DNA of 64,000 bases from NCBI GenBank assembly GCA_020353515.1, contig CP070695.1, positions 4,689,414 through 4,753,413 on the forward strand, written 5' to 3'. The notes beneath the pieces were generated by a model. It worked only from the letters and a program-made list of their open reading frames with translations. It was not told the origin of the DNA and did no database searches. Source of the stretch: Candidatus Heimdallarchaeota archaeon (lineage in GTDB: Archaea; Asgardarchaeota; Heimdallarchaeia; Hodarchaeales; Hodarchaeaceae). The translations under genes were made by a program, and so were the position numbers. Positions 13,160-52,068 of the stretch are shown here, piece by piece; position 1 is the stretch's first letter; each line of letters opens with the position of its first letter.

Positions 13160-13936
13160 TTATTCTTGTAAAAACCTTTCTAAAGTGGATTGTTTTTTTG
13201 AAGGGGTAACAAGTTTTCCGAATCGTGCTTTCTGCTGGATAATTTCTTTGTATTCTTCTCTAATTTCAAATCCTACTACGTCTCGGCCTGTTTGACGTGC
13301 TGCTAATATCGTACCACCACTTCCTGAAAAAACATCACCCACAAGATCACCAGGTGAGCTAGAGGTGAGAACTAATTTTTCTAAAAGAACAATTGGTAAT
13401 TGACACGGATGTCCTTTAATTCGGTGAGGATCATTACCCCGATTATACTCTGGCCAGAAGAATACGTCTTCATCATAATGTTTCTGCTTATAGAACTGAT
13501 AATTCTTCTTATTTTTAACCAATAGAAGGATATGATAATGACTTGTAACGAATCGTCTCTTTGTATACACCCCCCACGAAAAATACCATATTGCATGGTT
13601 TAACACATGGAATTTTGATTCATCGATGGCATTCAAGATAAATTGTAAATTAGTCCATCCTGAAATAATATAAAGACTCCCATTTTCTGTTAAAGCTTCA
13701 TGACAAGATTCAATCCATGCTTTAGAAAACTGGAAATATGATTCTGGAGTGAATTTGTCTTCATATAAATCATAATCATCAGCTCCATACTCATGACTAG
13801 ATTTATTAAACGCAATTCCGAATGGAGGATCAGCAATGATTAAATCAAAGAGTCGTTCTCTTGCTTTCCATGGTAATGTTTCAAGTACATCTCCAATTAT
13901 GAGTTCGTATTTTGATTCACTTATCATTTCGAACAC
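13160..13936 (-). CDS. DNA methyltransferase, beta class (N6A/N4C), with C-terminal PIP-box-like peptide
   Basis: DPPF (motif IV) before HPCQLP and DVFSGSG (motif I); ends KKQSTLERFLQE. Confidence 0.92.
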   Translation of the reverse strand: MFEMISESKYELIIGDVLETLPWKARERLFDLIIADPPFGIAFNKSSHEYGADDYDLYEDKFTPESYFQFSKAWIESCHEALTENGSLYIISGWTNLQFILNAIDESKFHVLNHAIWYFSWGVYTKRRFVTSHYHILLLVKNKKNYQFYKQKHYDEDVFFWPEYNRGNDPHRIKGHPCQLPIVLLEKLVLTSSSPGDLVGDVFSGSGGTILAARQTGRDVVGFEIREEYKEIIQQKARFGKLVTPSKKQSTLERFLQE

Positions 13937-13937
13937 G

Positions 13938-16070
13938 TTAAGATGATGGAGCGACTAGGTCATAACACGATTCCCAAACCTCTTGTTGAGGTAGAAGATT
14001 CCCTGAATGTGTAACAACCTGATATTTAGAATCCATTTCGAGAAGTATTCCTGAATAAATTGCTAAGTAATCAAAATCTTTAACTACAATATCTGCTTTT
14101 CTGAATGTTTCAAGCCGTTCTTTGTACTGCTGTTCAAAAATATTCATGAATTCATCCAAAATAATGTGTTGGTGTTGCTTTTGAATCTTAATACGACAAA
14201 CGACAACTAAATCAAAAGCGATGGCTCTCTTTTTTTGAATGTTTAGGACATTACGAGCTTCACTCGGAATTGGATGTGTTTTAACTACCTGAAATCCAGA
14301 TCTTAAAATAACATCAGCTAGTTTGAGCCATATTCGTTTATCAGAGTGATGAAAGGTAAAAACTAATAAACCGCTAGGCTTAAGCTTCGATTTTATAACA
14401 CTAAATATCTCAACTAGTTTATCGTAGTAGTTTAAGAGCCGATCAGGACTAACAATAGCTTCATCTTCCTTCGGTGTTTCTTCTGCTACAAACCATTTGT
14501 ATTTATCTTTAAGAACTAAACGTAACCATACATAGAAAAAATCTGATAATTCTGAATAGTTTATATTATCAGCATAGGGAGGATCTGAAATGATGAGATC
14601 AATAGATAATGGAAGATCTTTGATATCTTCCGAGTCTTGGCAAAGTAATAATAATTTTTTATCAATTGATGGAAACTCTTTAGAATATTCAGAAATAGCT
14701 TTTCCATCAATTTTTCCTGAGAAAAATTTCTGTTTGACTGATCTTCCTGTTGATGAAAGACTTCGTTGATAGTTAAAAGGAGTAAGATTATATTCTTTTC
14801 CCTTCAACAGGCGACTAAGACATTTTTTCCAAGTCCCTCTTCCATATTTTGTTCCCCAAACATTATTCTCAGCAAATGTGGAGAGAGGATGAAAGTCGTG
14901 TCGGGCAAAAATCCCCTCTACTTTCTGACCTTTAGGAGAATACCTTGTAAAGACATTATTATGATTTAGAAGATTTATAAATGCCGCTAAGAACATCTCT
15001 TGATAACGAGAATCAGGAATCTCATGAATATATTGGAGGATCAATGTGAGAGTTAATAATTGACGTTCATTAAATAAATCAACCCATTTTTTGTAATTAT
15101 GGTTATGAAGGGTCTTTGTTGCTACTCCAAATGGAACCGATTCTCTTGGCCACTGAAATTTAACTGAAGAACGTATCCAATACTCTTTTGCAGCATTAAA
15201 TAGATCAAGATCAGAATTAGAAATCCCTTTTATGAATTTGAATCTGGTGGTTTTGAGAGGCGAGTCTTGATCATTTGCACAATTTTCACAAAAACCTTCG
15301 ATAGCGTATAATTTACTTTTTAAAATTTGTTGATTATTCTTTAGAGCGTCAAGTATATTGGTTGTGTCACCACACTTCGAACATTTACAGGAATTCCGTC
15401 CAATCCGATTCCCCATTAGTGGATTGAATTTAAATTGGCATTGTGGGCATTTTAGTGACGTTGGAATAGAACCTAAGTGATTAAAAACAGTAACACATGA
15501 AGGACATAATATAGAGGAAATTTCACCTTTTATGGCAACTAAGAAATCTCGAAATAGAGAAATCTGGTTATTACATGTCAAACAGGGAACCAATTTAACC
15601 CAATGTGCATATATGATGTCAGCTTGGTGGTTACATATTGGACATTTAGTTATGTACCATTTTTTGATTTGAGGTTTAATCTTCTTTTCGCAGTCTTGAA
15701 TCCATTGTTGAAGTTCCTTTAAATTCACTAGTTCAGCTTCTGTTTTTGTAATAAACCATGCAACAGGGTTAATATCTATACCAATACAATTTAAACCTAG
15801 ACGTAAACTTTCGATGACAGTAGTCCCTCCTCCCACAAAAGGATCGATCACAGTAACATTGGAAAAGTCGTGATCGTCATAGAAGTTTGCCATAAGGTCT
15901 GCAGACGGGGGTAATAACGCTCCCAAAAGTAAGGCTCGAAAAGTAGAGGAGGACCGTCTAGCAAACCATTTTGAAATTTGATAAATTGGTTTATAACTAC
16001 TTCTTTCGGGGATAGCTAGTTTGCTAACCTCATAAATAGGAAATCTTTGTTCTATCAAACGACTAGTCAT
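13938..16070 (-). CDS. DUF1156-type adenine DNA methyltransferase with multiple Zn ribbons
   Basis: KWFARR, DPFVGGG, several CxxC pairs, DLFNERQ, SDPPYADNINYSELSDFFYVWL. Confidence 0.9.
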   Translation of the reverse strand: MTSRLIEQRFPIYEVSKLAIPERSSYKPIYQISKWFARRSSSTFRALLLGALLPPSADLMANFYDDHDFSNVTVIDPFVGGGTTVIESLRLGLNCIGIDINPVAWFITKTEAELVNLKELQQWIQDCEKKIKPQIKKWYITKCPICNHQADIIYAHWVKLVPCLTCNNQISLFRDFLVAIKGEISSILCPSCVTVFNHLGSIPTSLKCPQCQFKFNPLMGNRIGRNSCKCSKCGDTTNILDALKNNQQILKSKLYAIEGFCENCANDQDSPLKTTRFKFIKGISNSDLDLFNAAKEYWIRSSVKFQWPRESVPFGVATKTLHNHNYKKWVDLFNERQLLTLTLILQYIHEIPDSRYQEMFLAAFINLLNHNNVFTRYSPKGQKVEGIFARHDFHPLSTFAENNVWGTKYGRGTWKKCLSRLLKGKEYNLTPFNYQRSLSSTGRSVKQKFFSGKIDGKAISEYSKEFPSIDKKLLLLCQDSEDIKDLPLSIDLIISDPPYADNINYSELSDFFYVWLRLVLKDKYKWFVAEETPKEDEAIVSPDRLLNYYDKLVEIFSVIKSKLKPSGLLVFTFHHSDKRIWLKLADVILRSGFQVVKTHPIPSEARNVLNIQKKRAIAFDLVVVCRIKIQKQHQHIILDEFMNIFEQQYKERLETFRKADIVVKDFDYLAIYSGILLEMDSKYQVVTHSGNLLPQQEVWESCYDLVAPSS

Positions 16071-16080
16071 TTAGGTTGAC

Positions 16081-16716
16081 CTATTGCTTAGACACGAAAT
16101 GCATTAGCTCTTCTGGAGTTTTAAAGATATAATCTGGTTGACTTGCAATAAGTTTTGATTCTTCAATGGTTCCCCAAAGGGCAGCAGCAGTTTTTATTCC
16201 AGCAGCTTTTCCAGCTATTACATCTAGAGGGCTATCCCCAATAAACAAAATTTCAGCTTTATTTAAGTTTAAAACGCTTATTATACGAAATAACGCGTCT
16301 GGATAAGGTTTTGAACGTTCTACATCATTTCCAGTTAGTACCATATCAAAAATTTGAGTAATTCCGAGTTTTTCTAAGGTCATTTGCATTGTTTTTCTTG
16401 ATTTCCCAGTAAAAATTGTTAAGTGCTGAACATGCTCTTTCATGTCATTTAATTGATCAATAGAAAAAAAACCTTTGGTAGGATGGATTGTATTATACTG
16501 ATATAAGAATTCATTCCAAGCAGGGGTCAAAACATTAGAGGGAAAAACATTTTTGAATATTTCATCACCAGGAGGTCCCCATAAAGAAATTACATCCTGT
16601 TTACTCATTTTTTTACCAAGATACTTCAAAACTACCTCTTGAAATAATCGAATAATGAGATTGGCGTTATCAACAAGTGTACCGTCCACATCAAAAACCA
16701 GACAGCTAAGTTTCAT
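16081..16716 (-). CDS. HAD-family phosphatase (PGP/PpaX-like)
   Basis: FDVDGTL, TGK, KPYPD, GDSPLD. Confidence 0.92.
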   Translation of the reverse strand: MKLSCLVFDVDGTLVDNANLIIRLFQEVVLKYLGKKMSKQDVISLWGPPGDEIFKNVFPSNVLTPAWNEFLYQYNTIHPTKGFFSIDQLNDMKEHVQHLTIFTGKSRKTMQMTLEKLGITQIFDMVLTGNDVERSKPYPDALFRIISVLNLNKAEILFIGDSPLDVIAGKAAGIKTAAALWGTIEESKLIASQPDYIFKTPEELMHFVSKQ

Positions 16717-16799
16717 AACAGAAGAACATCCATTAGGAGACTAAAAATAGGATGGTTTAAATATTTTTAAACACGAGCCCAAATGAGTAAAGATGGTTA

Positions 16800-17603
16800 G
16801 TGATGGGTGACGAACCAAAGATTGACTCCCGAAATAAGCTCAATAGCCTTACTGGACGTCAATGGATCCGTTTCACAAAATCATGGTATATAGCTGATGG
16901 AAAATCAAGTGATATTTCCCATGAAATTGACTTACATCCCGCTTCATTTCCTCCACCAATGATTCGTGAATTCATTGAATTTTTCACAAAACCGGGAGAT
17001 AGTGTCTTGGATCCGTTTTTAGGCACAGGATCAACCTTAGTTGCCTGTGATGAGTGTGGACGACAAGGAATAGGGATAGAACTTTATGAAAAATACGTGA
17101 AGACAGCACGGGCTCGTACAGACCTTCCTATTCATCAAGGTGATTCCCGAGATATTGTGAAAACTCTAATCCAAAATGGAGAGAAATTCTCTCTCTGTAT
17201 CACATCACCTCCATATTGGCGTATATTGAAGAAAAAAAAGGATTATAATCAACAAAAACGTCTTCAAAAGGGATTAGATCTTAAGTATGGGGAACATCCA
17301 AAGGATTTGGGAATGATTGAGGAGCGAGTTACTTTCCTATCAGAACTTGTCATTTTTTTCAAGTTGATCAAAGATTTATTGCTAGAACATGGACATTTAG
17401 TGATCTTTGTCCAAAATATTCGAGATAAGGGGGAAATAAATCCTCTAGCCTTTGAGTTAGCCCTTAAATTAGCAAAAGATTATAAATTCTTAGGGGAACG
17501 CATCTGGCTTCAGAATCAGAAGACTTTACGGCCATATGGGTATCCCTACTCTTTTGTACCGAACATTCACCATCATTACGCCTTAATTTTTCAAAAGCGG
17601 TAA
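16800..17603 (+). CDS. N4-cytosine-type DNA methyltransferase, alpha class
   Basis: HPASFP, VLDPFLGTG (motif I) before TSPPY (motif IV). Confidence 0.88.
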   Translation: MMGDEPKIDSRNKLNSLTGRQWIRFTKSWYIADGKSSDISHEIDLHPASFPPPMIREFIEFFTKPGDSVLDPFLGTGSTLVACDECGRQGIGIELYEKYVKTARARTDLPIHQGDSRDIVKTLIQNGEKFSLCITSPPYWRILKKKKDYNQQKRLQKGLDLKYGEHPKDLGMIEERVTFLSELVIFFKLIKDLLLEHGHLVIFVQNIRDKGEINPLAFELALKLAKDYKFLGERIWLQNQKTLRPYGYPYSFVPNIHHHYALIFQKR

Positions 17604-17635
17604 AAGGAGAGAGTTACTATTTACAAAGGAAAGAC

Positions 17636-40665: not shown

Positions 40666-41640
40666 GTGCTTTGTAACAAATGTAGTGAATGTAGCAGTAG
40701 TTCAATGGTTTATGATGAACCGCGTGGTGAGATCATTTGTGGTGATTGTGGTTTAGTTGCCAATAGTGTGTTTTTTAGCCATGAACCAGAGTGGCGCGCA
40801 TATAACTCTGAGGAAGAAAAAGCAAAAGTTCGTGTTGGTCTTCCCACTTCTGTTTTAAACAATCGCGAAATGAGGACTGTCATTGGAGGGAAAAGGAAGG
40901 ATTCTTATGGTAAAACTCTTGATACCGCTACTCAGGCTAAATTTTCGCGATTATCACAAATGGATGAACGAATCCAAGATAAAACCACTCGTAACCTTAA
41001 AAGTGCATTAATGGAATTAAAAAGGATTAAATCTCATCTAAACCTTTCAGATGATATTTCTGAAACAGCGGTACTTTTGTATAAACTAGCTTTGGAAAAG
41101 GATTTAATAAAAGGTCGTTCAGTCATTGGTATGATTAGTGCAGCTATATACCTCGCCTGTCGAAAGAAAAATTCTGCAATCACCTTAAAAGATACAGCTG
41201 AAAAAGCAAACATTTCTACTAAAGAACTTGGCCGTTGTATCCGCATTTTCCTTCAAAATATTAACATTAACAGTTCAACACCTGATCCTGTGGCCCTAGT
41301 TAATCGATTAGGTGAAAATTTAGGACTTACTATGTATACTCGGAAAGTTGCCATCGATATTCTTATCGAAGCACGAGAAAAACGATTAACTATGGGAAAA
41401 ATACCAATGTCGTTAGCAGCTGCAGCAATTTACATTGCTTCTATTCAAACTGGCGAGAGACGAACTCAACAACAAATTGCTACTCCAGCACGTACAACGC
41501 CTGTAACAATACGAAATCGTTTTAAAGAACTTGCAAAAGGATTAGGATTAAACGAATTTAAAGTTAAACGAGGAGCTGCTGCTAAACCAGTGATTATTCA
41601 AAACCCGACAACTTGGGTTCGTAACAAAAGACAGGACTAA
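40666..41640 (+). CDS. tfb: Transcription initiation factor IIB
   Basis: CSEC...GEIICGDCG Zn ribbon, PEWRAY B-reader, two cyclin repeats, TIRNRFKEL. Confidence 0.95.
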   Translation: MLCNKCSECSSSSMVYDEPRGEIICGDCGLVANSVFFSHEPEWRAYNSEEEKAKVRVGLPTSVLNNREMRTVIGGKRKDSYGKTLDTATQAKFSRLSQMDERIQDKTTRNLKSALMELKRIKSHLNLSDDISETAVLLYKLALEKDLIKGRSVIGMISAAIYLACRKKNSAITLKDTAEKANISTKELGRCIRIFLQNININSSTPDPVALVNRLGENLGLTMYTRKVAIDILIEAREKRLTMGKIPMSLAAAAIYIASIQTGERRTQQQIATPARTTPVTIRNRFKELAKGLGLNEFKVKRGAAAKPVIIQNPTTWVRNKRQD

Positions 41641-42860: not shown

Positions 42861-45299
42861 TTACTCTTCGTTGATTATTGTGACTGTGAATGATTGCCTC
42901 GTACTATACCCAAGTACATCATAAACGGTAACAACAACAAGATATTTCCCAGGATTAGAGTATTCATGAGTTATAGACGCTTGAACATTTCTCAAAACCT
43001 TCTTTCCCCTCATTTCACGATAGGAATACCACTTTGCTTCAAATTGTCCGTTCTGATGATCCCAATCTATTGCCCAAAAATCAATGAAGTTAATAAAATC
43101 ATGAGTTATTCTTATATCTATGGGTTTGCTCAGACTAAAGGCTACAATGGTTATCTTTAGCTTTCTTCCTACAACTTTTGTTTCTAATCTAACCATTGGA
43201 TTTGTCATTTCACCTTTCGGTGTATGAGAAGGAGAAAGGGAATCTGATGAATCTATCGTATTTAAAATTTCGAAGGGCATATTATTGGGGATCTTCAGAA
43301 GTCTCTTCCTTACTTCATGTATTGAATATTTACCAATGTCAACCCCTACCCACATTCTTCCCAACTTCTCTGCAACTGCAAGTGCAGTTCCAGATCCACA
43401 GAAGAAATCAGCAATTATATCCCCTTTTTCAGTAGAAATTTCTATAATTCGTGTTAAAAGAGCTTCAGAATTTTCAGTTGGATATAAAGTCTTCTTTAGT
43501 TTTTCATAACCTGCGATGTCAATCCAGAGATTGTCACTGGAATACTGTATTTCTGCTGTATCCTGGTTCTTTCTTCTCTTTTTTTTAATTGTTGATGACT
43601 TTAATTGCGCTGATTCACTGTTTTGATAAGCAAAAACTGAATCTGAATGTACTATCAAATGTGTCTGATTATAGGCTTGTTTTAATGATAAATTTTTCTT
43701 CATTCTTCGCACTAAAAACTCATTGACAAAGTTTTGAGAGCCAAAAACTTCGTCTAAAACCATTCTAGCATAATGACCAAAATGGTAATCAAAGCGCACA
43801 AAAATAAGCCCATCATCCTGAAGAAGGGATCTCATCGGTTGAATACGCTTCTTAAACCATTGTTTAAAGAATTCAATAGGATCTGGAACCTCAATGACAT
43901 TTTTATAAGCCAAGTCCTCAATCGGAAAGACAATATTCTCTCCAGCGTTAAATTCCTGCCCTTCTGATAAACCAATGGGAATTATAATTTTTTCATTTGC
44001 TCCAGTGAAAAAGGGAGGATCGATATATATTATTTTCAGTTTTTTTTGTATTTTCTGATTCAAGCACGGTAATACTTCAAAAACATCCCCTAAAATCAAC
44101 ATATTCGCCCATTCATCAGATTTTTCTTTATTAGAGCTTGAAATTTGACCTAGATACCTTTCAATTAACTTCAGTGAAAATCTATTCGTAGAAGAAAAAT
44201 CGTTTACTGTGTCAATGGCATCATTTTTGGGATAAAGAGAGAGTGGAAAATCAGGTAAAGATTCACAATTATACGCAGAAAAGAATGTTCCTTTATCCTT
44301 AAGTAATTCCATTATAAGTTTAAAGGCGTATTGATCTTCCTCTAATCCTATCCATTTCAATCTCAATTGCTCTGCAATTATTAAAGACATTCCTAGATTA
44401 GTAGATAGATCTAAAAAGAGTTCCTGCTCATTTAAACACATTCTAAGCAGTCTTGTGTAAAAATCTGAAGAACTTGTAAAATATTTATTCACCCATTGAT
44501 AGCTGCAAATATCTAGCCAGTTAGAGTCAATAATCTGTCCCTTTTTTTGGGGAACCCAGTATTCAGGATTCCCCTTCCTATTCAATCGGATCTGACCTTT
44601 TGTACATAAATCAAGAATAGCCTCCTGTTTCAATTTCCAATGAGTTCCTGGGGGAGGCGTTAAAATAATCTCCCCAATGTCTTCAAAAATAAATTTTTTA
44701 GGATTACCCTGTCCTTTAGAGACAAAAGAATGCCAATACCCACCACTTTCTTTTTCATTTAACACAGGATTAATTCGCGGATTAAGATTTTGAGAATAAA
44801 GGAGAATAAAATTGGTTCTTTCAAACACTGTAGAATTGGGGGTGTACCAAACTTTATAGGGAGAATCAATTATTATTTCATTAACAAACCGATCAGAACC
44901 AAAGATGACATCCATTCTAGATTTCAAACCTGACTTTATTGTCCCATTTACCTTGATTGCGATGAATCCCTCCTCATGTAACACTAGTTTGCACCTATCT
45001 AGCAACTGTTGAGTTTTTCTCCAGAATTCGTTATTAATTTCCTTTTTTTCAGGTAATTTGGAATATTCTTCTCTTCTTTCCATTACAATTTCTTTGATAT
45101 CTTCGACCAGCTCTATTTTTGTTGGCTGATAATACATTGATAGATCCAAAAAGATTAACCGAGGATTTAAGCTCTTAAAAAATGATTTAAGATTCTCAAG
45201 GATATTGATTTTCGATCCTAATAGAATTAACTTATTGGTATCTTCAGGATGATTATCTTCTAAATGTTTAATCTCTGTCATTGATGAAGCGTGGATCAT
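42861..45299 (-). CDS. Type III Mod-like DNA methyltransferase with tandem degenerate and active MTase domains
   Basis: C-half IYIDPPF and DFFCGSGT; N-half aligned IFLDLSM and DLSTNLGM; Mod-type C-terminal domain (FWAIDWD...VYDVLG). Confidence 0.88.
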   Translation of the reverse strand: MIHASSMTEIKHLEDNHPEDTNKLILLGSKINILENLKSFFKSLNPRLIFLDLSMYYQPTKIELVEDIKEIVMERREEYSKLPEKKEINNEFWRKTQQLLDRCKLVLHEEGFIAIKVNGTIKSGLKSRMDVIFGSDRFVNEIIIDSPYKVWYTPNSTVFERTNFILLYSQNLNPRINPVLNEKESGGYWHSFVSKGQGNPKKFIFEDIGEIILTPPPGTHWKLKQEAILDLCTKGQIRLNRKGNPEYWVPQKKGQIIDSNWLDICSYQWVNKYFTSSSDFYTRLLRMCLNEQELFLDLSTNLGMSLIIAEQLRLKWIGLEEDQYAFKLIMELLKDKGTFFSAYNCESLPDFPLSLYPKNDAIDTVNDFSSTNRFSLKLIERYLGQISSSNKEKSDEWANMLILGDVFEVLPCLNQKIQKKLKIIYIDPPFFTGANEKIIIPIGLSEGQEFNAGENIVFPIEDLAYKNVIEVPDPIEFFKQWFKKRIQPMRSLLQDDGLIFVRFDYHFGHYARMVLDEVFGSQNFVNEFLVRRMKKNLSLKQAYNQTHLIVHSDSVFAYQNSESAQLKSSTIKKKRRKNQDTAEIQYSSDNLWIDIAGYEKLKKTLYPTENSEALLTRIIEISTEKGDIIADFFCGSGTALAVAEKLGRMWVGVDIGKYSIHEVRKRLLKIPNNMPFEILNTIDSSDSLSPSHTPKGEMTNPMVRLETKVVGRKLKITIVAFSLSKPIDIRITHDFINFIDFWAIDWDHQNGQFEAKWYSYREMRGKKVLRNVQASITHEYSNPGKYLVVVTVYDVLGYSTRQSFTVTIINEE

Positions 45300-45318: not shown

Positions 45319-46599
45319 TTAATTTATTTCATCATTTATTGCCATCAAAATCCTTTTACTGCTTTTTAAATATAATGTTAAAGCTAGTGTTCCTAATAAA
45401 ATCACTAAACTGGATACTAAAAAAGCAATACGATACGCAACGACTGTTGGCTCCCCTAAGAATATCAATAGATCTGCTACAGGCCCTCCTACAATGAATC
45501 CAGCTAATCCCCACCCTGTAGCCAATGTAATGTTAAAAACAGCAAATCCTGTACCCCTTAATTCGTCAGGTAACAAATCTGCTGTATAAGCAAAAGAAAC
45601 GCTCTGTAATAAAGAAGAACATCCACCTAAAAGCGAGTAGATGATTGCGATAATGAGGAATGGCTGGTTTCCTAATAAAAAGAAAAGGAAATAACATATT
45701 CCTGCCCCAAATCCAGTAAGTACAACTATGGGGATTCTACCAATTTTATCCGAAATTCTTCCCCCAATAGGAGCAATGAGTCCTCCTGTTAAAGAAAAGA
45801 GAATAAGTAAATAACTAATAAAAGTGTTATCAAAGCTTAAGCCAGTTGGATCATTAGAATAATAGAGAAATATTTGGGTACTAGATGAAATTCCAATTAC
45901 TAATAATCCAATACATAGAATAAAAATTAAATACGAGCGGTTGGTTAATAACTCACGAATAGCCTTAGAAACTATTGTAGTTCGATCAAAATCGATCTTC
46001 TCGACTTGAGGTGAAAATTGAATAACCGTTGCACACAAGATCATCAAGATTACAACTACATAAAAGATCGTTCCTTCACTAAATCCTAGTCCATCACGAT
46101 AAAGAAGTCCGCTTAATAAGAAACCCACAATTTGTCCAATTAACCCAAATCCGTCTATAAAACCAACGAGTTGTCCACGTTGGTTTCCTTCTGTAGCCTG
46201 TGCAACAAGAAATCTTACTCCTAAATCGCTCATAGACCAAAATATTTCGAGAATTGATAAGAGAATTATCATAAGAAAAGCAGCACCAATTTTAGATCCC
46301 AATTCTAGGAGAAAATAATGTCCAATGAATGCAAGAAGGTATGTAAACGCTGCAATCAATTCTCCACGAACAACATATGGTCTAGCTAAAGAAGGACGAT
46401 CATTAAGTCGTGGACCCCAAAGCTTGAGTTGCCCAAATGTCGATCCAATTAGATTGGCAGTCCCTAGTAAGGCAGCAAGAGTGTTTGGTAACCCTAGGAA
46501 TGTTCTAAGATAGAGATAAAAGAAGGCGTAAAAGACAGCTCGTCTTAAGAATGAAATGAATTGAAAAATGCCAATTGGAAAAATAGTTCGAATACTCAA
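45319..46599 (-). CDS. MFS transporter
   Basis: 12 TM pattern, GRISDKIGR. Confidence 0.88.
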   Translation of the reverse strand: MSIRTIFPIGIFQFISFLRRAVFYAFFYLYLRTFLGLPNTLAALLGTANLIGSTFGQLKLWGPRLNDRPSLARPYVVRGELIAAFTYLLAFIGHYFLLELGSKIGAAFLMIILLSILEIFWSMSDLGVRFLVAQATEGNQRGQLVGFIDGFGLIGQIVGFLLSGLLYRDGLGFSEGTIFYVVVILMILCATVIQFSPQVEKIDFDRTTIVSKAIRELLTNRSYLIFILCIGLLVIGISSSTQIFLYYSNDPTGLSFDNTFISYLLILFSLTGGLIAPIGGRISDKIGRIPIVVLTGFGAGICYFLFFLLGNQPFLIIAIIYSLLGGCSSLLQSVSFAYTADLLPDELRGTGFAVFNITLATGWGLAGFIVGGPVADLLIFLGEPTVVAYRIAFLVSSLVILLGTLALTLYLKSSKRILMAINDEIN

Positions 46600-46726
46600 T
46601 ATGACCCCTACTATTCCAAAATAATCTAGAGGTCGTTTTTTGTATTTTTCGCTCTTTATGTAATTATCATGTTTAAATTCGCCAATAGGACTCTTTTTTG
46701 ATCTGAGGGATGTTAAAAATTAGGTT

Positions 46727-48328
46727 TTACAATATTAATGACTTCTTCTTTATCCATAATTTATAATAGATGAGTAGAATTAGTCCAATCTGAAATCCAA
46801 TAAGTGAAATTTCAGTTGTTGAAGAAGAAGTTAATGTTGGTTCTCTTGGTATACCAGATAGTATCTCTTCTATTTGTTCAACTTGAATAATTGAGTTCCA
46901 ATCTGAACTGAATGTTATTCTATAGAGTCCACCTTCAGCAAAATAATGAATTGGGTATTCAGAACCATACAAAAACTTTAAAGTAGTTTTAGCACCTATA
47001 GGGATAATTATTTGTCGGTTATGATAATAAAATCTAAAAACATCAGCAGGAAAAGGTTCTCCACTAAAAGCGTTACATCGTTTCGGAATTAATAATCCCC
47101 CACCATCTTGAGGAGAGATTCCCATGAGAAATAAAGTCATACAACCTTCAGTAGTAGCATAATCAGTGTACACAGGTTTTTCTGCGGCCAATGTAAACCT
47201 AAATGTTTCAGAATCGTACAATCCTGCCTCGGGTCTTAATAGAGCTTGCCATGCCTGGATGACTTTTTCTCCTTCAAGCATCCTTTGCATGTGAAGTTTA
47301 TTTGTTTTATTAAAATGAGCGAAATACGTATGCAATAACATCCAAGCATCAAGGGTTCCAAATAATTCCCTTCGATTTGACCCCTTACTATGAACGACAA
47401 CATTAGCTCTCCATTGATGAGAATCCCATGAATTAACTAAATATCGATTTTGCAGATCTATATAGACCCTATCCCAATTTTGAAGGGTTCCGTTTAACCT
47501 ACGGAGTTTATCAAAATTAAAAAATACTTCAATTGCATCCCATTCCCAGGTTTTCCAACTTCTTGCATAATCGTAACCATTTTTGTGTTCATTCCAATAA
47601 TAAGTATTTAGATCCAACCATTCCTGGAACGCATATTCTAAGGCTTCTTCTAGGCTTGTTTCGTTGAACAATATTGTAAAACAATTAGCAAGATTTGCTG
47701 TACTCATCCATCTTGTATTAAACAAGTCTTTAGTTGAATTAGTATCAGGATTACACTCATAAAAAGCTCTAGAATTGGTAATCCTACAGTTTCTTAATCC
47801 CTCAAAAGCTGATGTAGCATTCCATTTTTCAGTTAAATAATTCAATTCTTTGGCATATCGATAACCATATAGAGTATATTGCCTCCACATATTAAAATAA
47901 TGGTCACTTTGCGTCACTGGTAACGAATAATTCTCAAACATTGGTGTCTGGTTCAATGCCCATTTAACAACTTCATCAATCATGAGTGGAGAATAGTTCA
48001 ACAATTCTGAATATCTCTTTGTATAAATTATTCCCTGCCAATCGTTATTTGACTGGTATTTGGTTAAGATTTTTGTGAGATCTGAAACGTTTACTTTTCC
48101 AAGCACTATTCCTCTAGCAAAGACATTCATATCGGAAGTCCAATCTGTTATTGTATTCGTTGATAAAAAAATCTTATCTGCTAAAATATCTGATTTTAGC
48201 TTATATTGAGGATTAATATCCGTTTCACAATTGATCTGGGATTTTGAAATTTCAACAATGAAGGCAAATCCAACAATAAGGGTTACTGAATACAAAAAAA
48301 GGTATTGTTTTAACTTCAGTAGTTTCAT
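46727..48328 (-). CDS. Secreted, C-terminally anchored aromatic-rich protein, possible (alpha/alpha)6 glycoside hydrolase-like fold
   Basis: Signal peptide, Trp/Tyr-rich helical body (YYWNE..GY), Thr/Ser linker, GF+TM+basic tail. Confidence 0.55.
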   Translation of the reverse strand: MKLLKLKQYLFLYSVTLIVGFAFIVEISKSQINCETDINPQYKLKSDILADKIFLSTNTITDWTSDMNVFARGIVLGKVNVSDLTKILTKYQSNNDWQGIIYTKRYSELLNYSPLMIDEVVKWALNQTPMFENYSLPVTQSDHYFNMWRQYTLYGYRYAKELNYLTEKWNATSAFEGLRNCRITNSRAFYECNPDTNSTKDLFNTRWMSTANLANCFTILFNETSLEEALEYAFQEWLDLNTYYWNEHKNGYDYARSWKTWEWDAIEVFFNFDKLRRLNGTLQNWDRVYIDLQNRYLVNSWDSHQWRANVVVHSKGSNRRELFGTLDAWMLLHTYFAHFNKTNKLHMQRMLEGEKVIQAWQALLRPEAGLYDSETFRFTLAAEKPVYTDYATTEGCMTLFLMGISPQDGGGLLIPKRCNAFSGEPFPADVFRFYYHNRQIIIPIGAKTTLKFLYGSEYPIHYFAEGGLYRITFSSDWNSIIQVEQIEEILSGIPREPTLTSSSTTEISLIGFQIGLILLIYYKLWIKKKSLIL

Positions 48329-48402: not shown

Positions 48403-49476
48403 TCAAGATAAAATTGAATTAAGAGACAAATTTTTAGATTCTTTTGATTTAACGACGTTATTTAGAGATGTTTTAAAAGATAAAGCAGCCCAATAGTTAA
48501 AAATCAGTCTAAGATTTCCTGAAGTTCGTAATAGGAGCTCCAAATCATAAACTGAAGGTTGAGTTTTTTTATCCCTTAATTTCTCTAGTAGTTTTCCAAT
48601 TGTAGGCAAATCTTTCTCCATTTTATTTTTTAGCCGTTTCGGTTGATTATCGGGGAGGAGTAAAGCATCAAGGTTCTCCAATCCTCCTGATTTATTATCG
48701 ATTTCTTGAAGGATTTTGATAACTATATCTTTTTCAAATCCTTCACTAATTCTATGATGTGTTCCCCGCCATTTTGTCAAATTTCCCACTCCACGTTCAC
48801 CGCCTTTCGGTAAAAGCACCATATTTGACCCTGTGATACGCCAACGAGCAGAATCACTTCCATCGACTTTTTCTGCAAGTTTGTTGATAAGACTAGGTGC
48901 TCCTACTCCCAAAGCCCAAATTTTAACTTTTTCTAAAGCATCATACTGTCTTAGGATTGTCTTCAATTCATCGAGGACTGGAAATAATCGATTTGCGTGT
49001 CCTCCTCCTTTCCTCATCAAAGGAACAAGACGGCCAATGAAAAACCATTCAGGAAAACCCTCATTCAAGATAATTTCTCTCAATATTTCAACTCTGTCAT
49101 AAGGAACAACAGGTTGCACTTCTAAGGAGTATAGTTCTCTATAGTTTACTAAAATCTTGTCATCAGGAAAATCCAAAGTTATTTTTAGAATAGATGGATC
49201 CTGTTTAGTTATTTCTTGATATATCCTCTTCAATTCGTCTATGTCTAGATCTATCTTTTTTTTTCTATTTAATGCCGAGAAAGCACCAGAATCAAGTAAG
49301 ATTTTACCATCCCATCCAAGAGTATCATGAATCCCCTTTTTTACTACCTTTTGAAACAATCTAGGAGAACTAAAGAAGTCTATTGCGGATATCATCAATG
49401 CATCTGGTTTCAATGCCCAATCGTAAGTCCAAGGGCGAAATATCGCATTGATAGGAGTGCCAATAGCAAAGATCAT
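48403..49476 (-). CDS. TGT/DpdA-like transglycosylase paralog 1
   Basis: LLDSGAFS, ITLDFP, PVV, IGRLVP, WALGVG, GSDSARW; no Zn-binding cysteines, no PUA domain. Confidence 0.78.
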   Translation of the reverse strand: MIFAIGTPINAIFRPWTYDWALKPDALMISAIDFFSSPRLFQKVVKKGIHDTLGWDGKILLDSGAFSALNRKKKIDLDIDELKRIYQEITKQDPSILKITLDFPDDKILVNYRELYSLEVQPVVPYDRVEILREIILNEGFPEWFFIGRLVPLMRKGGGHANRLFPVLDELKTILRQYDALEKVKIWALGVGAPSLINKLAEKVDGSDSARWRITGSNMVLLPKGGERGVGNLTKWRGTHHRISEGFEKDIVIKILQEIDNKSGGLENLDALLLPDNQPKRLKNKMEKDLPTIGKLLEKLRDKKTQPSVYDLELLLRTSGNLRLIFNYWAALSFKTSLNNVVKSKESKNLSLNSILS

Positions 49477-49485
49477 TATTGTACC

Positions 49486-50010
49486 TCAAAATAGGAAATC
49501 TTCAAGGGATTTGGTTCTTGACAAATTCTCCAAGAATCGCACTAATTTTTGTTGTCCAACCCCAAGTCCACCCATATTTTCCACTATAATTTTTGTATCT
49601 ATATGAGTTTTTAAACCTTCAATAGCCTTTAAGTAGGTTTTTCCCATTAATATATAGATGTAGTCAAATTCCTCCTCTTTATTCCATCTGATTACCTCTT
49701 GGATTACCTGTGAATTATGTTTTCTAGCAAGATTTTCAGTCATTTTCAGATCATAATCTTTAATTAAATCAGTACTCCTAAGGAAGCCATATTTCGCAGA
49801 TACTATCCCTAAAAATAGGTGGGAACTCCATCTCCCCTCACGCTTAGCTTTCCTAATTACCTGAAACATTGGGCCTTTATAGGCCTCTGATGCACGTATT
49901 TCACGATTCTGTAACTCCAAGGCTTTTTTCTTACCACATGATATGATAAGTAAGACTTTTGGCTTTTTCAACAGAAGTACTCTCAAAAATAAAATATCTC
50001 TAAAGGTCAA
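49486..50010 (-). CDS. DUF6884-like protein
   Basis: LLIISCGKKK, A.EAYKGPMF, IVSAKYGFL, YDLKM, MGKTY, GLGVGQQ; real start possibly TTG 49971. Confidence 0.75.
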   Translation of the reverse strand: MTFRDILFLRVLLLKKPKVLLIISCGKKKALELQNREIRASEAYKGPMFQVIRKAKREGRWSSHLFLGIVSAKYGFLRSTDLIKDYDLKMTENLARKHNSQVIQEVIRWNKEEEFDYIYILMGKTYLKAIEGLKTHIDTKIIVENMGGLGVGQQKLVRFLENLSRTKSLEDFLF

Positions 50011-50909
50011 GATAACATTTTTTGGAGTCGTTCAGCATATTGATTACTTTTCTCATCGGCACCTGTAATTTTAATGCCTGATGGCTCTTGAACTCCTAAT
50101 TTTAGCTCTACAGCTCTTGCTATCTGTTCTTGTTCAAATACAGGGCCATTTGCTACTTCAGGTGTTGTACCAAGATCACGAAGGATTGTTACACCCACAG
50201 CATCAATAGCTATTCGATCTGTCCCTGCTAACATCACATGAGGATGTTCAAGTTTTCCTCTTGCTGGTCCTCCTTCAACAAAAGCGTCTATACCATCCAA
50301 AATCACTAATGTAGGAGTGTAAATCTGATTAATTTCAGCGATAAGTTTTCGCTGATGTGGAGAGGAATGAAGTTCACGCATGAATTCATAACCTTGTCGG
50401 GGGACAAAACCGACCGCTAATTTCAGTGAGAAAGTAAAATGTCCTCCAAATTGATGTGTTTTAAGACAGGGTAACGCAATAATAGCGTCTACACTTTGAA
50501 TGAATTTAGGAAAGAGAAAACCATTTTTCCAATTAGAATCACTCTGTTGGACTGGCTGAAACTGAATCCACTCTGAGTGAGGTAAGGAGGATAAATCTAG
50601 AATATCAAAACCTCCAATCTCTTTCTGTAGGGCAAATAATCCTTTGGTTTCCATAGTATCATGCGTATCTGCTGGGCCAGCTCGCTCTACAACAGTAATT
50701 TTCTTTACTCCACAAATCTTAAGGTGAGTGATTAATACTCGAATAATCTCAATATCTGTCGAAGCAGGGGGAGGGTCTGCTGTATTAAAATTGGGCTTAA
50801 TAGCGACTCTTTTACCTTTTAAAGCCTCAAAAAGAGACTTATAATAAGAGAAAATTATTTTCATCCCTTTGATTCTGTCATCAGTTTTAACAAGGAAGAC
50901 TTCAGTCAT
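50007..50909 (-). CDS. DUF362 family protein
   Basis: VAIKPN, LKTH...TFSLKL.VG, ILDG..EGGP, D.IAID. Confidence 0.88.
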   Translation of the reverse strand: MTEVFLVKTDDRIKGMKIIFSYYKSLFEALKGKRVAIKPNFNTADPPPASTDIEIIRVLITHLKICGVKKITVVERAGPADTHDTMETKGLFALQKEIGGFDILDLSSLPHSEWIQFQPVQQSDSNWKNGFLFPKFIQSVDAIIALPCLKTHQFGGHFTFSLKLAVGFVPRQGYEFMRELHSSPHQRKLIAEINQIYTPTLVILDGIDAFVEGGPARGKLEHPHVMLAGTDRIAIDAVGVTILRDLGTTPEVANGPVFEQEQIARAVELKLGVQEPSGIKITGADEKSNQYAERLQKMLS

Positions 50910-51036
50910 CTTAGAACCACCTGGTCTGTAAAATCTGTTATGAACACTTATCCCCTTAAATTAATAAGTTGCTAGAATTCCCTTATGAGAACTAATCATC
51001 AATATCTAGATTATTAGGTGTATCGAGGTAGTACCT

Positions 51037-51972
51037 TTGCGCTTATATTTAGGCGTTGTTCCAGGAATTTTTCCATGGTTGAAGGAGGACATTATTCACA
51101 AAAATATGACACGTATTTATGCAGGAGTTATTTTTTCATACTGGTCATTTCGAAAAAAAATCCAAAATATAATCTCGAAAGGACTTCATGATTATTTTTC
51201 TTTTGATGGACCTATTATGGTAGATTCTGGGGCTTATAGTGCCTTTAATTCTGGTGTAAATATTGACATTGACGATTATTTGTCTTTTATATCGAAAATT
51301 GATATGAAAGACGATGATACTATTGTTAATCTTGATGTGATTCAAAATCCAAGAAAGTCAAAACAGAATTGGAGATACTTAACGAATAAGTTGGATATCA
51401 ACGTTTTGCCAGTGATTCATCTACCTGAAGCAGGAAATTCATATTTCTCTGAAGATTATATAGGACTGGGTGGGATGGTGCCAGCATTCAAAATAAATCA
51501 AACTGGGAGTGTGAAAAATGTAGCTGCTTGGTTGGTTTCATTAGATCAGACCGTAAACAAAAAGTATCATGGATTTGGTGTTGGAAGTCCATATCATCAA
51601 ATTGCATTTCTTGACTTCCTTTATTCGGTAGATTGGATTGGTTGGCGAAGGAATGCAGCAGTCTGTTCATGTTACACCCCTGAAGGATCAATTTATATTC
51701 ATGAGGCTCGTAAAAAGAAAAAGAAGGGAAGAAGAATTACAGAGGAGATATTTAATCTTTATGCTCCCCCATTCATCGATTCATACGAGATGTTATATCG
51801 AGAGGGCACAGAGGGGTGGGTAAATCGTGCATTGTGGAATGTATGGTGGTTTCTACTTGCAAAAGACTATAAAGGTCAAATTGAAGTCTCTAGCTATGTT
51901 CTTTCTTTGAAAAAAACAATTCGTCAAACAGAACTGGAATATAGGACAATGGATCTTGGTCAATTCTTATGA
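51037..51972 (+). CDS. TGT/DpdA-like transglycosylase paralog 2
   Basis: MVDSGAYS, VNLDVI, LPVIH, IGLGGMVP, YHGFGVG, YSVDWIGW; no Zn site. Confidence 0.8.
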   Translation: MRLYLGVVPGIFPWLKEDIIHKNMTRIYAGVIFSYWSFRKKIQNIISKGLHDYFSFDGPIMVDSGAYSAFNSGVNIDIDDYLSFISKIDMKDDDTIVNLDVIQNPRKSKQNWRYLTNKLDINVLPVIHLPEAGNSYFSEDYIGLGGMVPAFKINQTGSVKNVAAWLVSLDQTVNKKYHGFGVGSPYHQIAFLDFLYSVDWIGWRRNAAVCSCYTPEGSIYIHEARKKKKKGRRITEEIFNLYAPPFIDSYEMLYREGTEGWVNRALWNVWWFLLAKDYKGQIEVSSYVLSLKKTIRQTELEYRTMDLGQFL

Positions 51973-52068
51973 GAGATTAAAATGAATGACAACCTTGAAA
52001 TATATTCCCAAGTATCAAGTAGTATATTTCACTTGAAACCGTCAATTAGTCTTTATCATACATCGTTA

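What the first reader, a model, noticed from the sequence alone, without database searches (positions are those of the whole stretch)
42861..45299. Single-chain pseudo-dimeric type III Mod: dead half keeps the TRD, active half has lost it
Seen: the 812-aa protein has two collinear beta-class MTase copies. The N-half has destroyed motifs (DLSM for DPPF at about aa 52; DLSTNLGM for DFFCGSGT) but keeps an approximately 87-aa TRD-like segment (YWHSF...PPPGTHWK...GNPEY, about 44520-44790). The C-half has intact DPPF (44010-44021) and FxGxG but only about 28 aa, Lys/Arg-rich, at the TRD position. Known: in the EcoP15I Mod2 dimer one subunit recognises DNA and the other methylates. Inference: duplication-fusion with reciprocal loss fixed this division of labour in one chain. 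No res gene is adjacent.
Basis: partly seen in the sequence, partly recalled or inferred. Interest (0 to 1): 0.82.

Follow-up and report, generated by a model that had tools for sequence, protein, structure and literature searches.

The report
Fused dead-plus-live DNA methyltransferase
One Asgard-archaeal gene joins a catalytically dead copy of a restriction-system DNA methylase that keeps the DNA-reading insert to a live copy that has lost it, so a job normally shared by two identical subunits appears to be built into a single protein that has shed its restriction partner.

Summary
The 812-aa ORF (42861-45299, minus strand) holds two PF01555 methyltransferase folds. The N copy has ruined motifs IV and I but keeps a 93-aa insert at the TRD position. 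The C copy has intact DPPF and FxGxG but only a 29-aa basic loop there, followed by a PKD-like tail.

New here:
- Constraint is inverted. The dead copy's TRD is the most conserved segment (69% identity), while its core is relaxed (35%). Ordinary Res-linked relatives show the opposite.
- All dead copies form one clade and all live copies another, apart from single-domain Mod-Res enzymes. This fits one duplication.
- Four loci keep a three-gene Type III system (dead ModA, Res, live ModB), two of them in other Asgard families. An AU test rejects a single clade of all the solitary forms, so Res loss happened more than once.
- The fused gene is not Asgard-wide. It is a syntenic core gene of one GTDB genus (19/21 genomes), with no Res relative found in this genome.

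Not tested: the pseudo-dimer geometry, the target motif, and the modified base (m6A or m4C). The scan found the same family earlier in other genomes. I found no paper describing it.

The parts
42861..45299 (-). Whole gene: 812-aa fused dead-plus-live methyltransferase (P0001)
   Evidence: ORF list and translation. About 55 full-length homologues at 34-75% identity.
44265..45278 (-). N copy (aa ~8-345): catalytically dead Mod-type methyltransferase fold
   Evidence: PF01555 36.6 bits. AF2 pLDDT 85.5. VIA Z 22.2 to 7dsu_B, 21.7 to 6k0w_B, 21.6 to 4zcf_A with 308 residues aligned. Core only 35% mean pairwise identity across the family.
45135..45146 (-). Degenerate motif IV (DLSM in place of DPPF)
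   Evidence: Alignment: D-[LFIY]-[SP]-x in all homologues, with DLP[FVI] in the deeper-branching ones.
44514..44792 (-). TRD-position insert of the N copy (aa 170-262; SGGYWHSF, PPPGTHWK, GNPEYW)
   Evidence: Present in N-type copies and in single-domain Mods, deleted in C-type copies. It is the most conserved segment of the protein: 69% identity, 52% of columns near-invariant.
44388..44411 (-). Degenerate motif I (DLSTNLGM in place of DFFCGSGT)
   Evidence: this stretch is variable and glycine-poor across the fused family.
44115..44264 (-). Linker (aa 346-395)
   Evidence: 16% mean identity and no conserved column. pLDDT below 50 at aa 357-371 and 387-395.
43245..44114 (-). C copy (aa ~396-685): active methyltransferase domain
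   Evidence: PF01555 117.7 bits. VIA Z 27.3 to 6k0w_B, 25.9 to 4zcf_B, 25.2 to 7dsu_B. Core 62% identity.
44010..44021 (-). Motif IV, DPPF
   Evidence: D427, P428 and P429 are invariant in 55 sequences.
43533..43619 (-). 29-aa Lys/Arg-rich loop at the TRD position of the C copy
   Evidence: K573, R576 and E583 are invariant.
43386..43409 (-). Motif I, DFFCGSGT (AdoMet binding)
   Evidence: D631, F632, G635, S636 and T638 are invariant.
42864..43202 (-). PKD-like beta-sandwich tail (aa ~700-812)
   Evidence: Weak PKD/PKD_4 hits below the Pfam cut-offs (E 1.7e-4 and 2.3e-4). Foldseek match to PKD1 domain 6aem_A, TM 0.80 by target. The same tail occurs in single-domain Mods and in ModA/ModB of the three-gene systems.

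Best explanation
What it is: a solitary, chromosomally fixed DNA amino-methyltransferase derived from a Type III restriction-modification Mod subunit and built as a covalent pseudo-heterodimer.

Shown:
- Two Mod-type folds lie in one chain.
- The N copy has lost the catalytic motif and the AdoMet motif but keeps the family's TRD insert under the strongest constraint in the protein.
- The C copy keeps DPPF and FxGxG but has the TRD deleted down to a 29-aa basic loop.
- The copies are joined by a disordered, unconserved ~50-aa linker and followed by a PKD-like tail.

Inferred, by analogy with EcoP15I Mod2, where ModA reads the site with its TRD and ModB methylates:
- The N copy's TRD docks in the major groove and specifies the site.
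- The C copy flips and methylates the target base on one strand of an asymmetric site.
- One polypeptide therefore does the work of the Mod2 homodimer.

Origin, inferred from trees and loci: a Mod gene of a Mod-Res system duplicated. The copies subfunctionalised as ModA (dead reader) and ModB (live writer) flanking Res. In several lineages Res and the middle C-terminal domains were lost, and the two genes became adjacent or fused.

In this genus it is a stably inherited single-copy gene with no nuclease partner found. Its mark is therefore more likely epigenetic, housekeeping or self-protective than restrictive. The modified base (N6-adenine or N4-cytosine) cannot be told from the sequence.
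For: Two PF01555 domains and internal similarity.

Motifs across 55 homologues.

Structure:
- Full model pLDDT 83.6, pTM 0.86.
- C half best matches Type III Mods, Z 25-27.
- N half best matches Type III Mods, Z about 22. 308 residues align to EcoP15I chain A over residues 78-516, a range that contains its TRD at 263-384.

Constraint:
- Fused family: N core 35%, N TRD 69%, C core 62% identity.
- N-type copies overall: core 28%, TRD 57%.
- 51 single-domain Res-linked Mods: core 54%, TRD 38%.

Deletion exactly at the TRD in every C-type copy.

Phylogeny: N-type clade 100*, C-type clade 97*, both together against single Mods 98*.

Naturally separate forms always pair an N-type with a C-type:
- Helarchaeota-labelled 346-aa + 467-aa adjacent genes in three assemblies.
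- ModA-Res-ModB in L004 and L091; A-Res in L088/L089; Res-B in L092.

The EcoP15I mechanism is quoted from PMC4490356. That paper states a single beta-class Mod subunit cannot both read the sequence and methylate the base.

No Res relative in this genome. Conserved synteny and 19/21 presence in the genus.
Against: - pTM 0.86 only says the arrangement is predicted with confidence.
- There is no biochemical or methylome evidence.
- Many TRD residues that are invariant here (GYW, PPxGxH[WF]K, PxYWV) are also conserved in single-domain Mods from many phyla. They may be scaffold rather than base-reading residues.
- The C copy keeps a conserved basic loop and the PKD tail, either of which could contribute to binding or recognition.
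- Some N-type relatives retain an FxGxG-like motif (P0057, P0265, P0145), so AdoMet binding by the dead copy is not excluded everywhere.
- The substrate (DNA rather than RNA) is inferred from family membership only.
Confidence: 0.72

Rival explanations
1. The dead N copy is only a structural or allosteric partner, in the way METTL14 supports METTL3. Sequence specificity would reside in the C copy's basic loop and/or the PKD-like tail, and the conserved N-half insert would serve folding or protein contacts.
For: The conserved TRD residues are shared with single-domain Mods of presumably different specificities. The C-half loop has invariant K573, R576 and E583, and the tail has conserved residues. 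PKD-tailed small methyltransferases with their own short TRD exist without any N-type partner (L095, L096).
Against: The insert is the most constrained segment of the whole protein while the rest of the N copy is relaxed. It sits at the TRD position, and the N half aligns to EcoP15I chain A over a range that includes the TRD. In EcoP15I the methylating subunit makes few base contacts.
Confidence: 0.12
2. It is not solitary. It still serves a restriction or defence system whose nuclease is unlinked or unrecognised, for example an unrelated helicase-nuclease elsewhere or an unannotated neighbour.
For: The relatives are bona fide Mod-Res and ModA-Res-ModB systems. The genome carries about 25 PF01555 genes and other modification genes. 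Several neighbours have no Pfam match (orf145, orf533).
Against: No relative of the family's Res was found in the complete contig, and none lies within 10 kb in 19 syntenic loci. The middle C-terminal region present in all Res-linked forms is missing from the fused and split forms. Stable vertical synteny beside housekeeping genes is unlike a mobile defence island.
Confidence: 0.07
3. The substrate is not double-stranded genomic DNA. The enzyme could be an RNA or single-stranded-DNA methyltransferase, or sequence-unspecific, recruited from a Mod scaffold.
For: Class-beta enzymes include RNA writers and the unspecific M.EcoGII (PMC7544214). The fixed, highly conserved reader would fit one invariant cellular target.
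Against: The closest sequence and structure relatives are all DNA Mod subunits. MT-A70-type enzymes match much less well, Z about 13. Sister forms are wired to a DNA restriction helicase-nuclease.
Confidence: 0.05
4. The N half is a decaying remnant with no function, that is, a fusion to a pseudogenised duplicate.
For: The catalytic and cofactor motifs are destroyed, and N-type branches are about twice as long as C-type branches.
Against: The open frame is kept in all 19 genus members and in deeper lineages. 48 of the 93 TRD columns are at least 90% conserved. The fold is predicted with confidence. An N-type gene persists wherever a C-type gene is found in a complete locus.
Confidence: 0.02

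Closest known systems
EcoP15I Mod2 and other Type III Mod homodimers (PDB 4ZCF, 6K0W, 7DSU)
   Same: Beta-class motif order with the TRD inserted between the two halves of the fold. They are the best structural and sequence matches for both halves and PADLOC MTase_III models are among the top hits (best E 1.7e-55). Division of labour between a reading subunit and a methylating subunit is documented for EcoP15I. Close relatives of this gene sit directly beside a Res gene.
   Different: Here the two subunits are different and joined in one chain. There is no Res. The TRD is about 93 aa, against 122 aa and two lobes in EcoP15I. The C-terminal domain is a PKD-like sandwich rather than EcoP15I's alpha/beta CTD. 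The middle C-terminal region of Res-linked relatives is absent.
Three-gene ModA-Res-ModB systems found here (L004, L088/L089, L091 = G127, L092 = G143)
   Same: The same N-type (DLPF or ELPY, degenerate motif I, full TRD) and C-type (DPPF, FxGSG, TRD deleted) copies. They fall in the same clades as the two halves of the fused protein.
   Different: The copies are separate genes flanking a ResIII helicase-nuclease. Each keeps its own middle region and PKD-like tail. They are presumably restriction-competent. I found no description of such heteromeric Type III systems in the held literature.
Eukaryotic active/inactive class-beta pairs: METTL3-METTL14 and ciliate MTA1-MTA9
   Same: An active subunit is paired with a paralogue whose motif IV has eroded (PMC7544214). 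The logic of a catalytic subunit with a non-catalytic partner is the same.
   Different: Those are separate chains of the MT-A70 family. The structural match is much weaker (Z about 13 against 22-27) and there is no MT-A70 Pfam hit. Recognition there relies on other domains or subunits. The evidence points to convergence, not ancestry.
CcrM and small class-beta homodimers (M.MboIIA, M.BceJIV, M.RsrI)
   Same: The same catalytic fold (Z 20-24). Dimer-dependent recognition has been proposed for the whole class.
   Different: They are homodimers of fully active subunits, with a short TRD or an extra C-terminal domain, and no dead copy.

Membership tests
Class-beta DNA amino-methyltransferase (Pfam PF01555 N6_N4_Mtase) | Profile match above the curated cut-off | tested here: met
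   C half 117.7 bits and N half 36.6 bits, against a cut-off of 26.7.
Class-beta DNA amino-methyltransferase (Pfam PF01555 N6_N4_Mtase) | Motif order IV ... TRD ... I, with (D/N/S)PP(Y/F/W) and FxGxG | tested here: met
   Met by the C half: DPPF at aa 427-430 and FCGSG within DFFCGSGT at aa 631-638, invariant in 55 sequences. The N half has the same order, but both motifs are destroyed (DLSM, DLSTNLGM).
Class-beta DNA amino-methyltransferase (Pfam PF01555 N6_N4_Mtase) | Rossmann-like methyltransferase fold | tested here: met
   VIA Z 20-27 for the C half and 18-22 for the N half against solved class-beta enzymes.
Type III R-M Mod subunit | Closest sequence and structure relatives are Mod subunits | tested here: met
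   Top PDB sequence hits are 6k0w, 4zcf and 7dsu. Top VIA hits for both halves are the same three entries. PADLOC MTase_III E 1.7e-55.
Type III R-M Mod subunit | A cognate res gene (SF2 helicase plus PD-(D/E)xK nuclease) in the same operon | tested here: not met
   None in the window neighbourhood. None within 10 kb in 19 syntenic loci. No relative of the family's Res in the 4.94-Mb genome with the L004 Res as query. The feature is met in single-domain and three-gene relatives.
Type III R-M Mod subunit | Functions as a Mod2 homodimer of identical, fully equipped subunits | not testable with these tools
   The sequence shows two unlike copies in one chain. The oligomeric state and packing could not be examined because no model coordinates were available.
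Type III R-M Mod subunit | One polypeptide carries both a TRD and an active catalytic site | tested here: not met
   The TRD is only in the dead N copy and the active site only in the TRD-less C copy.
MT-A70 family (METTL3/METTL14, MTA1/MTA9) | MT-A70 profile match or closest structural kinship | tested here: not met
   No MT-A70 family among the Pfam hits at E 0.01. VIA Z about 13 for these complexes, against 22-27 for Mods.
Tandem double methyltransferases of asymmetric-site (Type IIS-like) systems | Both fused domains are catalytically competent | tested here: not met
   The N copy lacks motifs IV and I in all 55 homologues. A true tandem of two active PKD-tailed methylases was seen elsewhere (L096).

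The most novel reading that the evidence does not exclude
This is a natural monomeric class-beta DNA methyltransferase. The dimer requirement of the class is met within one chain by a dead reader copy and a live writer copy. It arose repeatedly from a previously undescribed heteromeric Type III restriction system (ModA reader, Res, ModB writer). In one Hodarchaeales-like genus it has been domesticated as a core gene that writes a single, genus-wide fixed DNA mark. That would be a prokaryotic, independently evolved counterpart of the METTL3-METTL14 and MTA1-MTA9 design.
Probability: 0.55. Interest if true: 0.78.

Novelty: new variant of a known kind. Interest (0 to 1): 0.7.

Why it matters
Class-beta methyltransferases are thought to need a dimer because one subunit cannot both read the site and reach the base (PMC4490356, PMC7544214). 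This family would be a natural experiment that hard-wires that asymmetry.

- Reader and writer functions sit on separable, differently constrained modules. The division of labour therefore becomes directly testable by truncation, TRD swap and split-gene complementation.
- The series of forms (single Mod-Res, ModA-Res-ModB, adjacent genes, fused gene) documents subfunctionalisation of a restriction enzyme's methylase and its repeated conversion into a solitary methylase.
- It shows that active/dead methyltransferase pairing, known from eukaryotic m6A writers, also evolved in archaea. I see no evidence of direct ancestry.
- A single-chain reader-writer scaffold may also be useful for engineering specificity.

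Tried and rejected
1. "Asgard-wide housekeeping gene". The NCBI labels on the hits (Thor-, Hermod-, Heimdall-, Hod-, Promethearchaeota) suggested this. In a GTDB sample of 400 genomes of the phylum, the full-length form occurs only in the window's own genus (19/21), apart from one divergent fused form, G282. Those labelled records map to that same genus. Rejected.

2. Res elsewhere in the genome. Nothing was found with the L004 Res as query. A family-level ResIII scan was not run because generic helicases would match.

3. Kinship with MT-A70 (METTL3/14). Only Z about 13 and no Pfam hit. I treat the resemblance as convergence.

4. The 440-490-aa proteins that matched the C half plus tail (P0258, P0257) were examined as possible stand-alone C-type enzymes. 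They are ordinary active methylases with their own short TRD and the canonical YPTQKPE motif. L096 is a tandem of two active ones. They are not evidence that a TRD-less copy works alone.

5. The middle C-terminal region of Res-linked forms (P0123 aa 345-600) was searched against PDB sequences and Pfam. There were no significant matches, so its equivalence to the Res-contacting CTD of EcoP15I stays a guess.

6. DPPF as an indicator of adenine specificity. Rejected, because characterised m4C Type III Mods also carry DPPY/F (PMC8259958).

7. A functional link to the adjacent DpdA-like module. In most genus members the upstream gene abuts or overlaps the methylase gene. However, the link is absent from fused, split and three-gene relatives outside the genus. 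G065 keeps the module without the methylase. In this window two genes are inserted between them. The link is not supported.

8. The Atabeyarchaeia/Freyarchaeia methylome paper and the archaeal REBASE survey give no motif for this family.

9. Superposing the model on the EcoP15I dimer was not possible because coordinates are not exposed.
Full report
**The gene.** Window 42861-45299 (minus strand) is one 812-aa ORF. Pfam finds the class-beta DNA methylase family PF01555 twice, both times above its cut-off. The C half (aa 422-661) scores 117.7 bits and the N half (aa 84-330) 36.6 bits. A weak PKD-like signal lies at the C-terminus. The halves align to each other in collinear blocks (BLASTP E 6e-8 and 3e-4). 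The neighbours include TFIIB, so the organism is an archaeon.

- N half: DLSM (aa 52-55) stands where the C half has DPPF (aa 427-430, nt 44010-44021).
- N half: DLSTNLGM (aa 297-304) stands where the C half has DFFCGSGT (aa 631-638).
- The N half carries a 93-aa insert (aa 170-262) at the TRD position.
- The C half has only a 29-aa Lys/Arg-rich loop there (aa 561-589).

An alignment with relatives shows a clean deletion of about 75 aa at exactly this place in the C copy.

**Fold.** AlphaFold2 with a 55-sequence alignment gives pLDDT 83.6 and pTM 0.86. The only long disordered stretch is the linker between the halves.
- The C half matches Type III Mod subunits best: 6k0w_B Z 27.3, EcoP15I 4zcf_B Z 25.9, 7dsu_B Z 25.2.
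- The N half, modelled alone (pLDDT 85.5), is also a Mod-type methyltransferase: 7dsu_B Z 22.2, 6k0w_B Z 21.7, EcoP15I 4zcf_A Z 21.6.
- For 4zcf_A, 308 residues align over chain residues 78-516. That range contains the EcoP15I TRD at 263-384, with limits taken from PMC4490356.
- MT-A70 enzymes (METTL3, MTA1) reach only Z about 13.

The refutation condition "the N half does not adopt a methyltransferase fold" therefore fails. I could not obtain model coordinates, so the packing of the two halves against the EcoP15I ModA/ModB dimer is not tested.

**Homologues and constraint.** About 55 full-length homologues (745-867 aa, 34-75% identity) share the architecture. In all of them the N copy has D-[LFIY]-[SP]-x in place of DPPF and a glycine-poor stretch in place of FxGxG. 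The C copy has invariant D427, P428, P429 and G635, S636.

Mean pairwise identity by segment:

| Segment | Identity | Columns at least 90% conserved |
|---|---|---|
| N core | 35% | 11% |
| N TRD | 69% | 52% (highest in the protein) |
| Linker | 16% | 0% |
| C core | 62% | 41% |
| C loop | 50% | 21% |
| PKD tail | 34% | 11% |

In 51 ordinary single-domain relatives the order is the usual one for restriction enzymes: core 54%, TRD 38%. In N-type copies it is inverted: core 28%, TRD 57%. Selection on the dead copy has moved from chemistry to the reading insert, as division of labour predicts. One caveat applies. Many of the invariant TRD residues are also conserved in single-domain Mods of many phyla, so part of this constraint may be structural.

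**Relatives and origin.** A scan of species-representative genomes with ORF-level annotation shows the non-Asgard relatives, from Thermoplasmata and many bacterial phyla. They are 610-760-aa single-domain Mods with DPPF, the same TRD, FxGxG, a middle region and the PKD-like tail. In most of these loci a Res gene lies beside the Mod, usually directly downstream.

Intermediates exist.
- L004 encodes ModA, Res and ModB. ModA (583 aa) has DLPF, a degenerate motif I, a full TRD and its own tail. Res (858 aa) has ResIII plus endonuclease domains. ModB (600 aa) has DPPF and FGGSGT, with the TRD deleted.
- The same order occurs in G127, an Asgard genome of another family (L091).
- Partial copies occur on truncated contigs: L088/L089 (A-Res, with Res 48% identical to the L004 Res) and L092 (Res-B).
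- Three Helarchaeota-labelled assemblies carry the solitary split form, a 346-aa N-type gene directly followed by a 467-aa C-type gene.

**Phylogeny.** A tree of 87 domains puts all N-type copies in one clade (100*) and all C-type copies in another (97*). The two together are separated from the single Mods (98*), which fits a single duplication. N-type branches are about twice as long as C-type branches. On a concatenated N+C tree the three-gene system of G127 is sister to a fused form (99*). An AU test rejects a single clade of all solitary forms (delta lnL 107.7, p 4e-50). The group was named after the tree was seen, and the tree came from a quick search. So reciprocal loss preceded fusion, and Res loss happened more than once. 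Because the gene order is A-Res-B, one deletion from the ModA tail into the start of ModB would give the fused gene. This last step is my inference.

**Distribution.** NCBI labels suggested an Asgard-wide gene, but a GTDB-based sample of 400 genomes of the phylum says otherwise.
- The full-length form is in 19 of the 21 other genomes of the window's own genus. The two without it are about 70% complete one-contig genomes.
- Outside the genus there are three weaker hits. G127 and G143 are ModB genes of three-gene systems, and G282 is a divergent fused form.
- The labelled records, including Candidatus Hodarchaeum mangrovi, map to this one genus.
- Within the genus the locus is strictly syntenic: orf174, orf357, [MFS], methylase, YjbQ/UPF0047, orf145, then a convergent TFB paralogue.
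- The TFB is 76-94% identical where the methylase is 43-68%.
- The genome has no relative of the family's Res.
- The fused and split forms lack the middle C-terminal region that all Res-linked forms keep.

**Mechanism.** PMC4490356 shows that in EcoP15I Mod2 one protomer (ModA) reads CAGCAG with its TRD while the other (ModB) flips and methylates the adenine. It also states that one class-beta subunit cannot geometrically do both. The most likely reading here is that the N copy reads and the C copy writes, within one chain, on one strand of an asymmetric site. The base is undetermined, because characterised m4C Type III Mods also carry DPPY/F.

**Rivals.** I considered four: the N copy as a mere scaffold, a hidden nuclease partner, a non-DNA substrate, and a decaying remnant. 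They are weighed in the Rival explanations section. The last is effectively excluded by the conservation pattern.

**Known or new.** The held literature describes homodimeric Mods and eukaryotic active/dead pairs. I found no dead-plus-live Mod pair, fused or separate. The archaeal REBASE survey lists two Type III Mods and no Res for its single Asgard genome, without comment. This scan has already found and followed up the same family in other genomes with the same conclusion. I class it as a new variant of a known kind.

Noticed in passing
window 48403-53409: Directly upstream lies a conserved module. It holds orf357 (DSGAF motif, weak TGT/DpdA-type hits in Pfam, PHROGs and NCBIfam; nearest Atlas clusters are viral TGT/DpdA), DUF6884/DpdC-like orf174, DUF362, a second DpdA-like gene (51037-51972, +) and a 446-aa PF01555-related protein. 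In most genus members orf357 abuts or overlaps the methylase start. G065 keeps the module without the methylase. This was already reported as e1-5541938.
   Followed up: partly
window 40666-41640 (+) and loci L005-L024: A specific TFB (TFIIB) paralogue, 76-94% identical across the genus, lies convergent 1-2 kb downstream of the methylase in most genus members examined. The genome has at least one other TFB at 53% identity.
   Followed up: partly
window 45319-48328 (-): An MFS transporter (45319-46599) and a 533-aa ORF with no family match (46727-48328) sit between orf357 and the methylase here. MFS is present only in the subclade nearest the window. orf533 was not seen in the closest relative examined in full (L005).
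   Followed up: partly
L004:1892-8036; L091:8271-14519; L088:4342-8043; L092:901-3172: Three-gene Type III systems with a dead, TRD-bearing ModA and a live, TRD-less ModB flanking Res. L004 also has an Mrr-like gene downstream. No description was found in the held literature.
   Followed up: partly
L096:3718-6685; L095:2176-3495: A broader family of small (439-492 aa) active class-beta methylases shares the PKD-like tail (DYWAIDW...). L096 has two active ones in tandem. The tail therefore predates the Type III-like branch.
   Followed up: partly
window 13235-17624: A cluster of further PF01555 matches (about 13235-13846, 14277-14603, 15765-15860 on the minus strand; 16836-17108 and 17190-17624 on the plus strand, the last with an in-frame stop). 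The genome has 37 PF01555 matches in all, roughly 25 genes.
   Followed up: no
L061:265-4375; L075:9695-14090: Bacterial loci with two adjacent full-length Mod genes (Muribaculaceae with Res downstream; Patescibacteria). I did not check whether one copy is dead.
   Followed up: no
L005-L024 record titles compared with G057-G077: Records labelled Thor-, Hermod-, Heimdall-, Hod- and Promethearchaeota in NCBI all belong to one GTDB genus. Taxon labels on these MAGs should not be used to infer distribution.
   Followed up: yes
L097:5681-7738 (G079, sister family): A 685-aa single-domain, fully active Mod of the same family, with TRD and PKD tail. No Res was seen in the remaining 5.9 kb of the contig. 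It may be a solitary single Mod in the sister family.
   Followed up: partly
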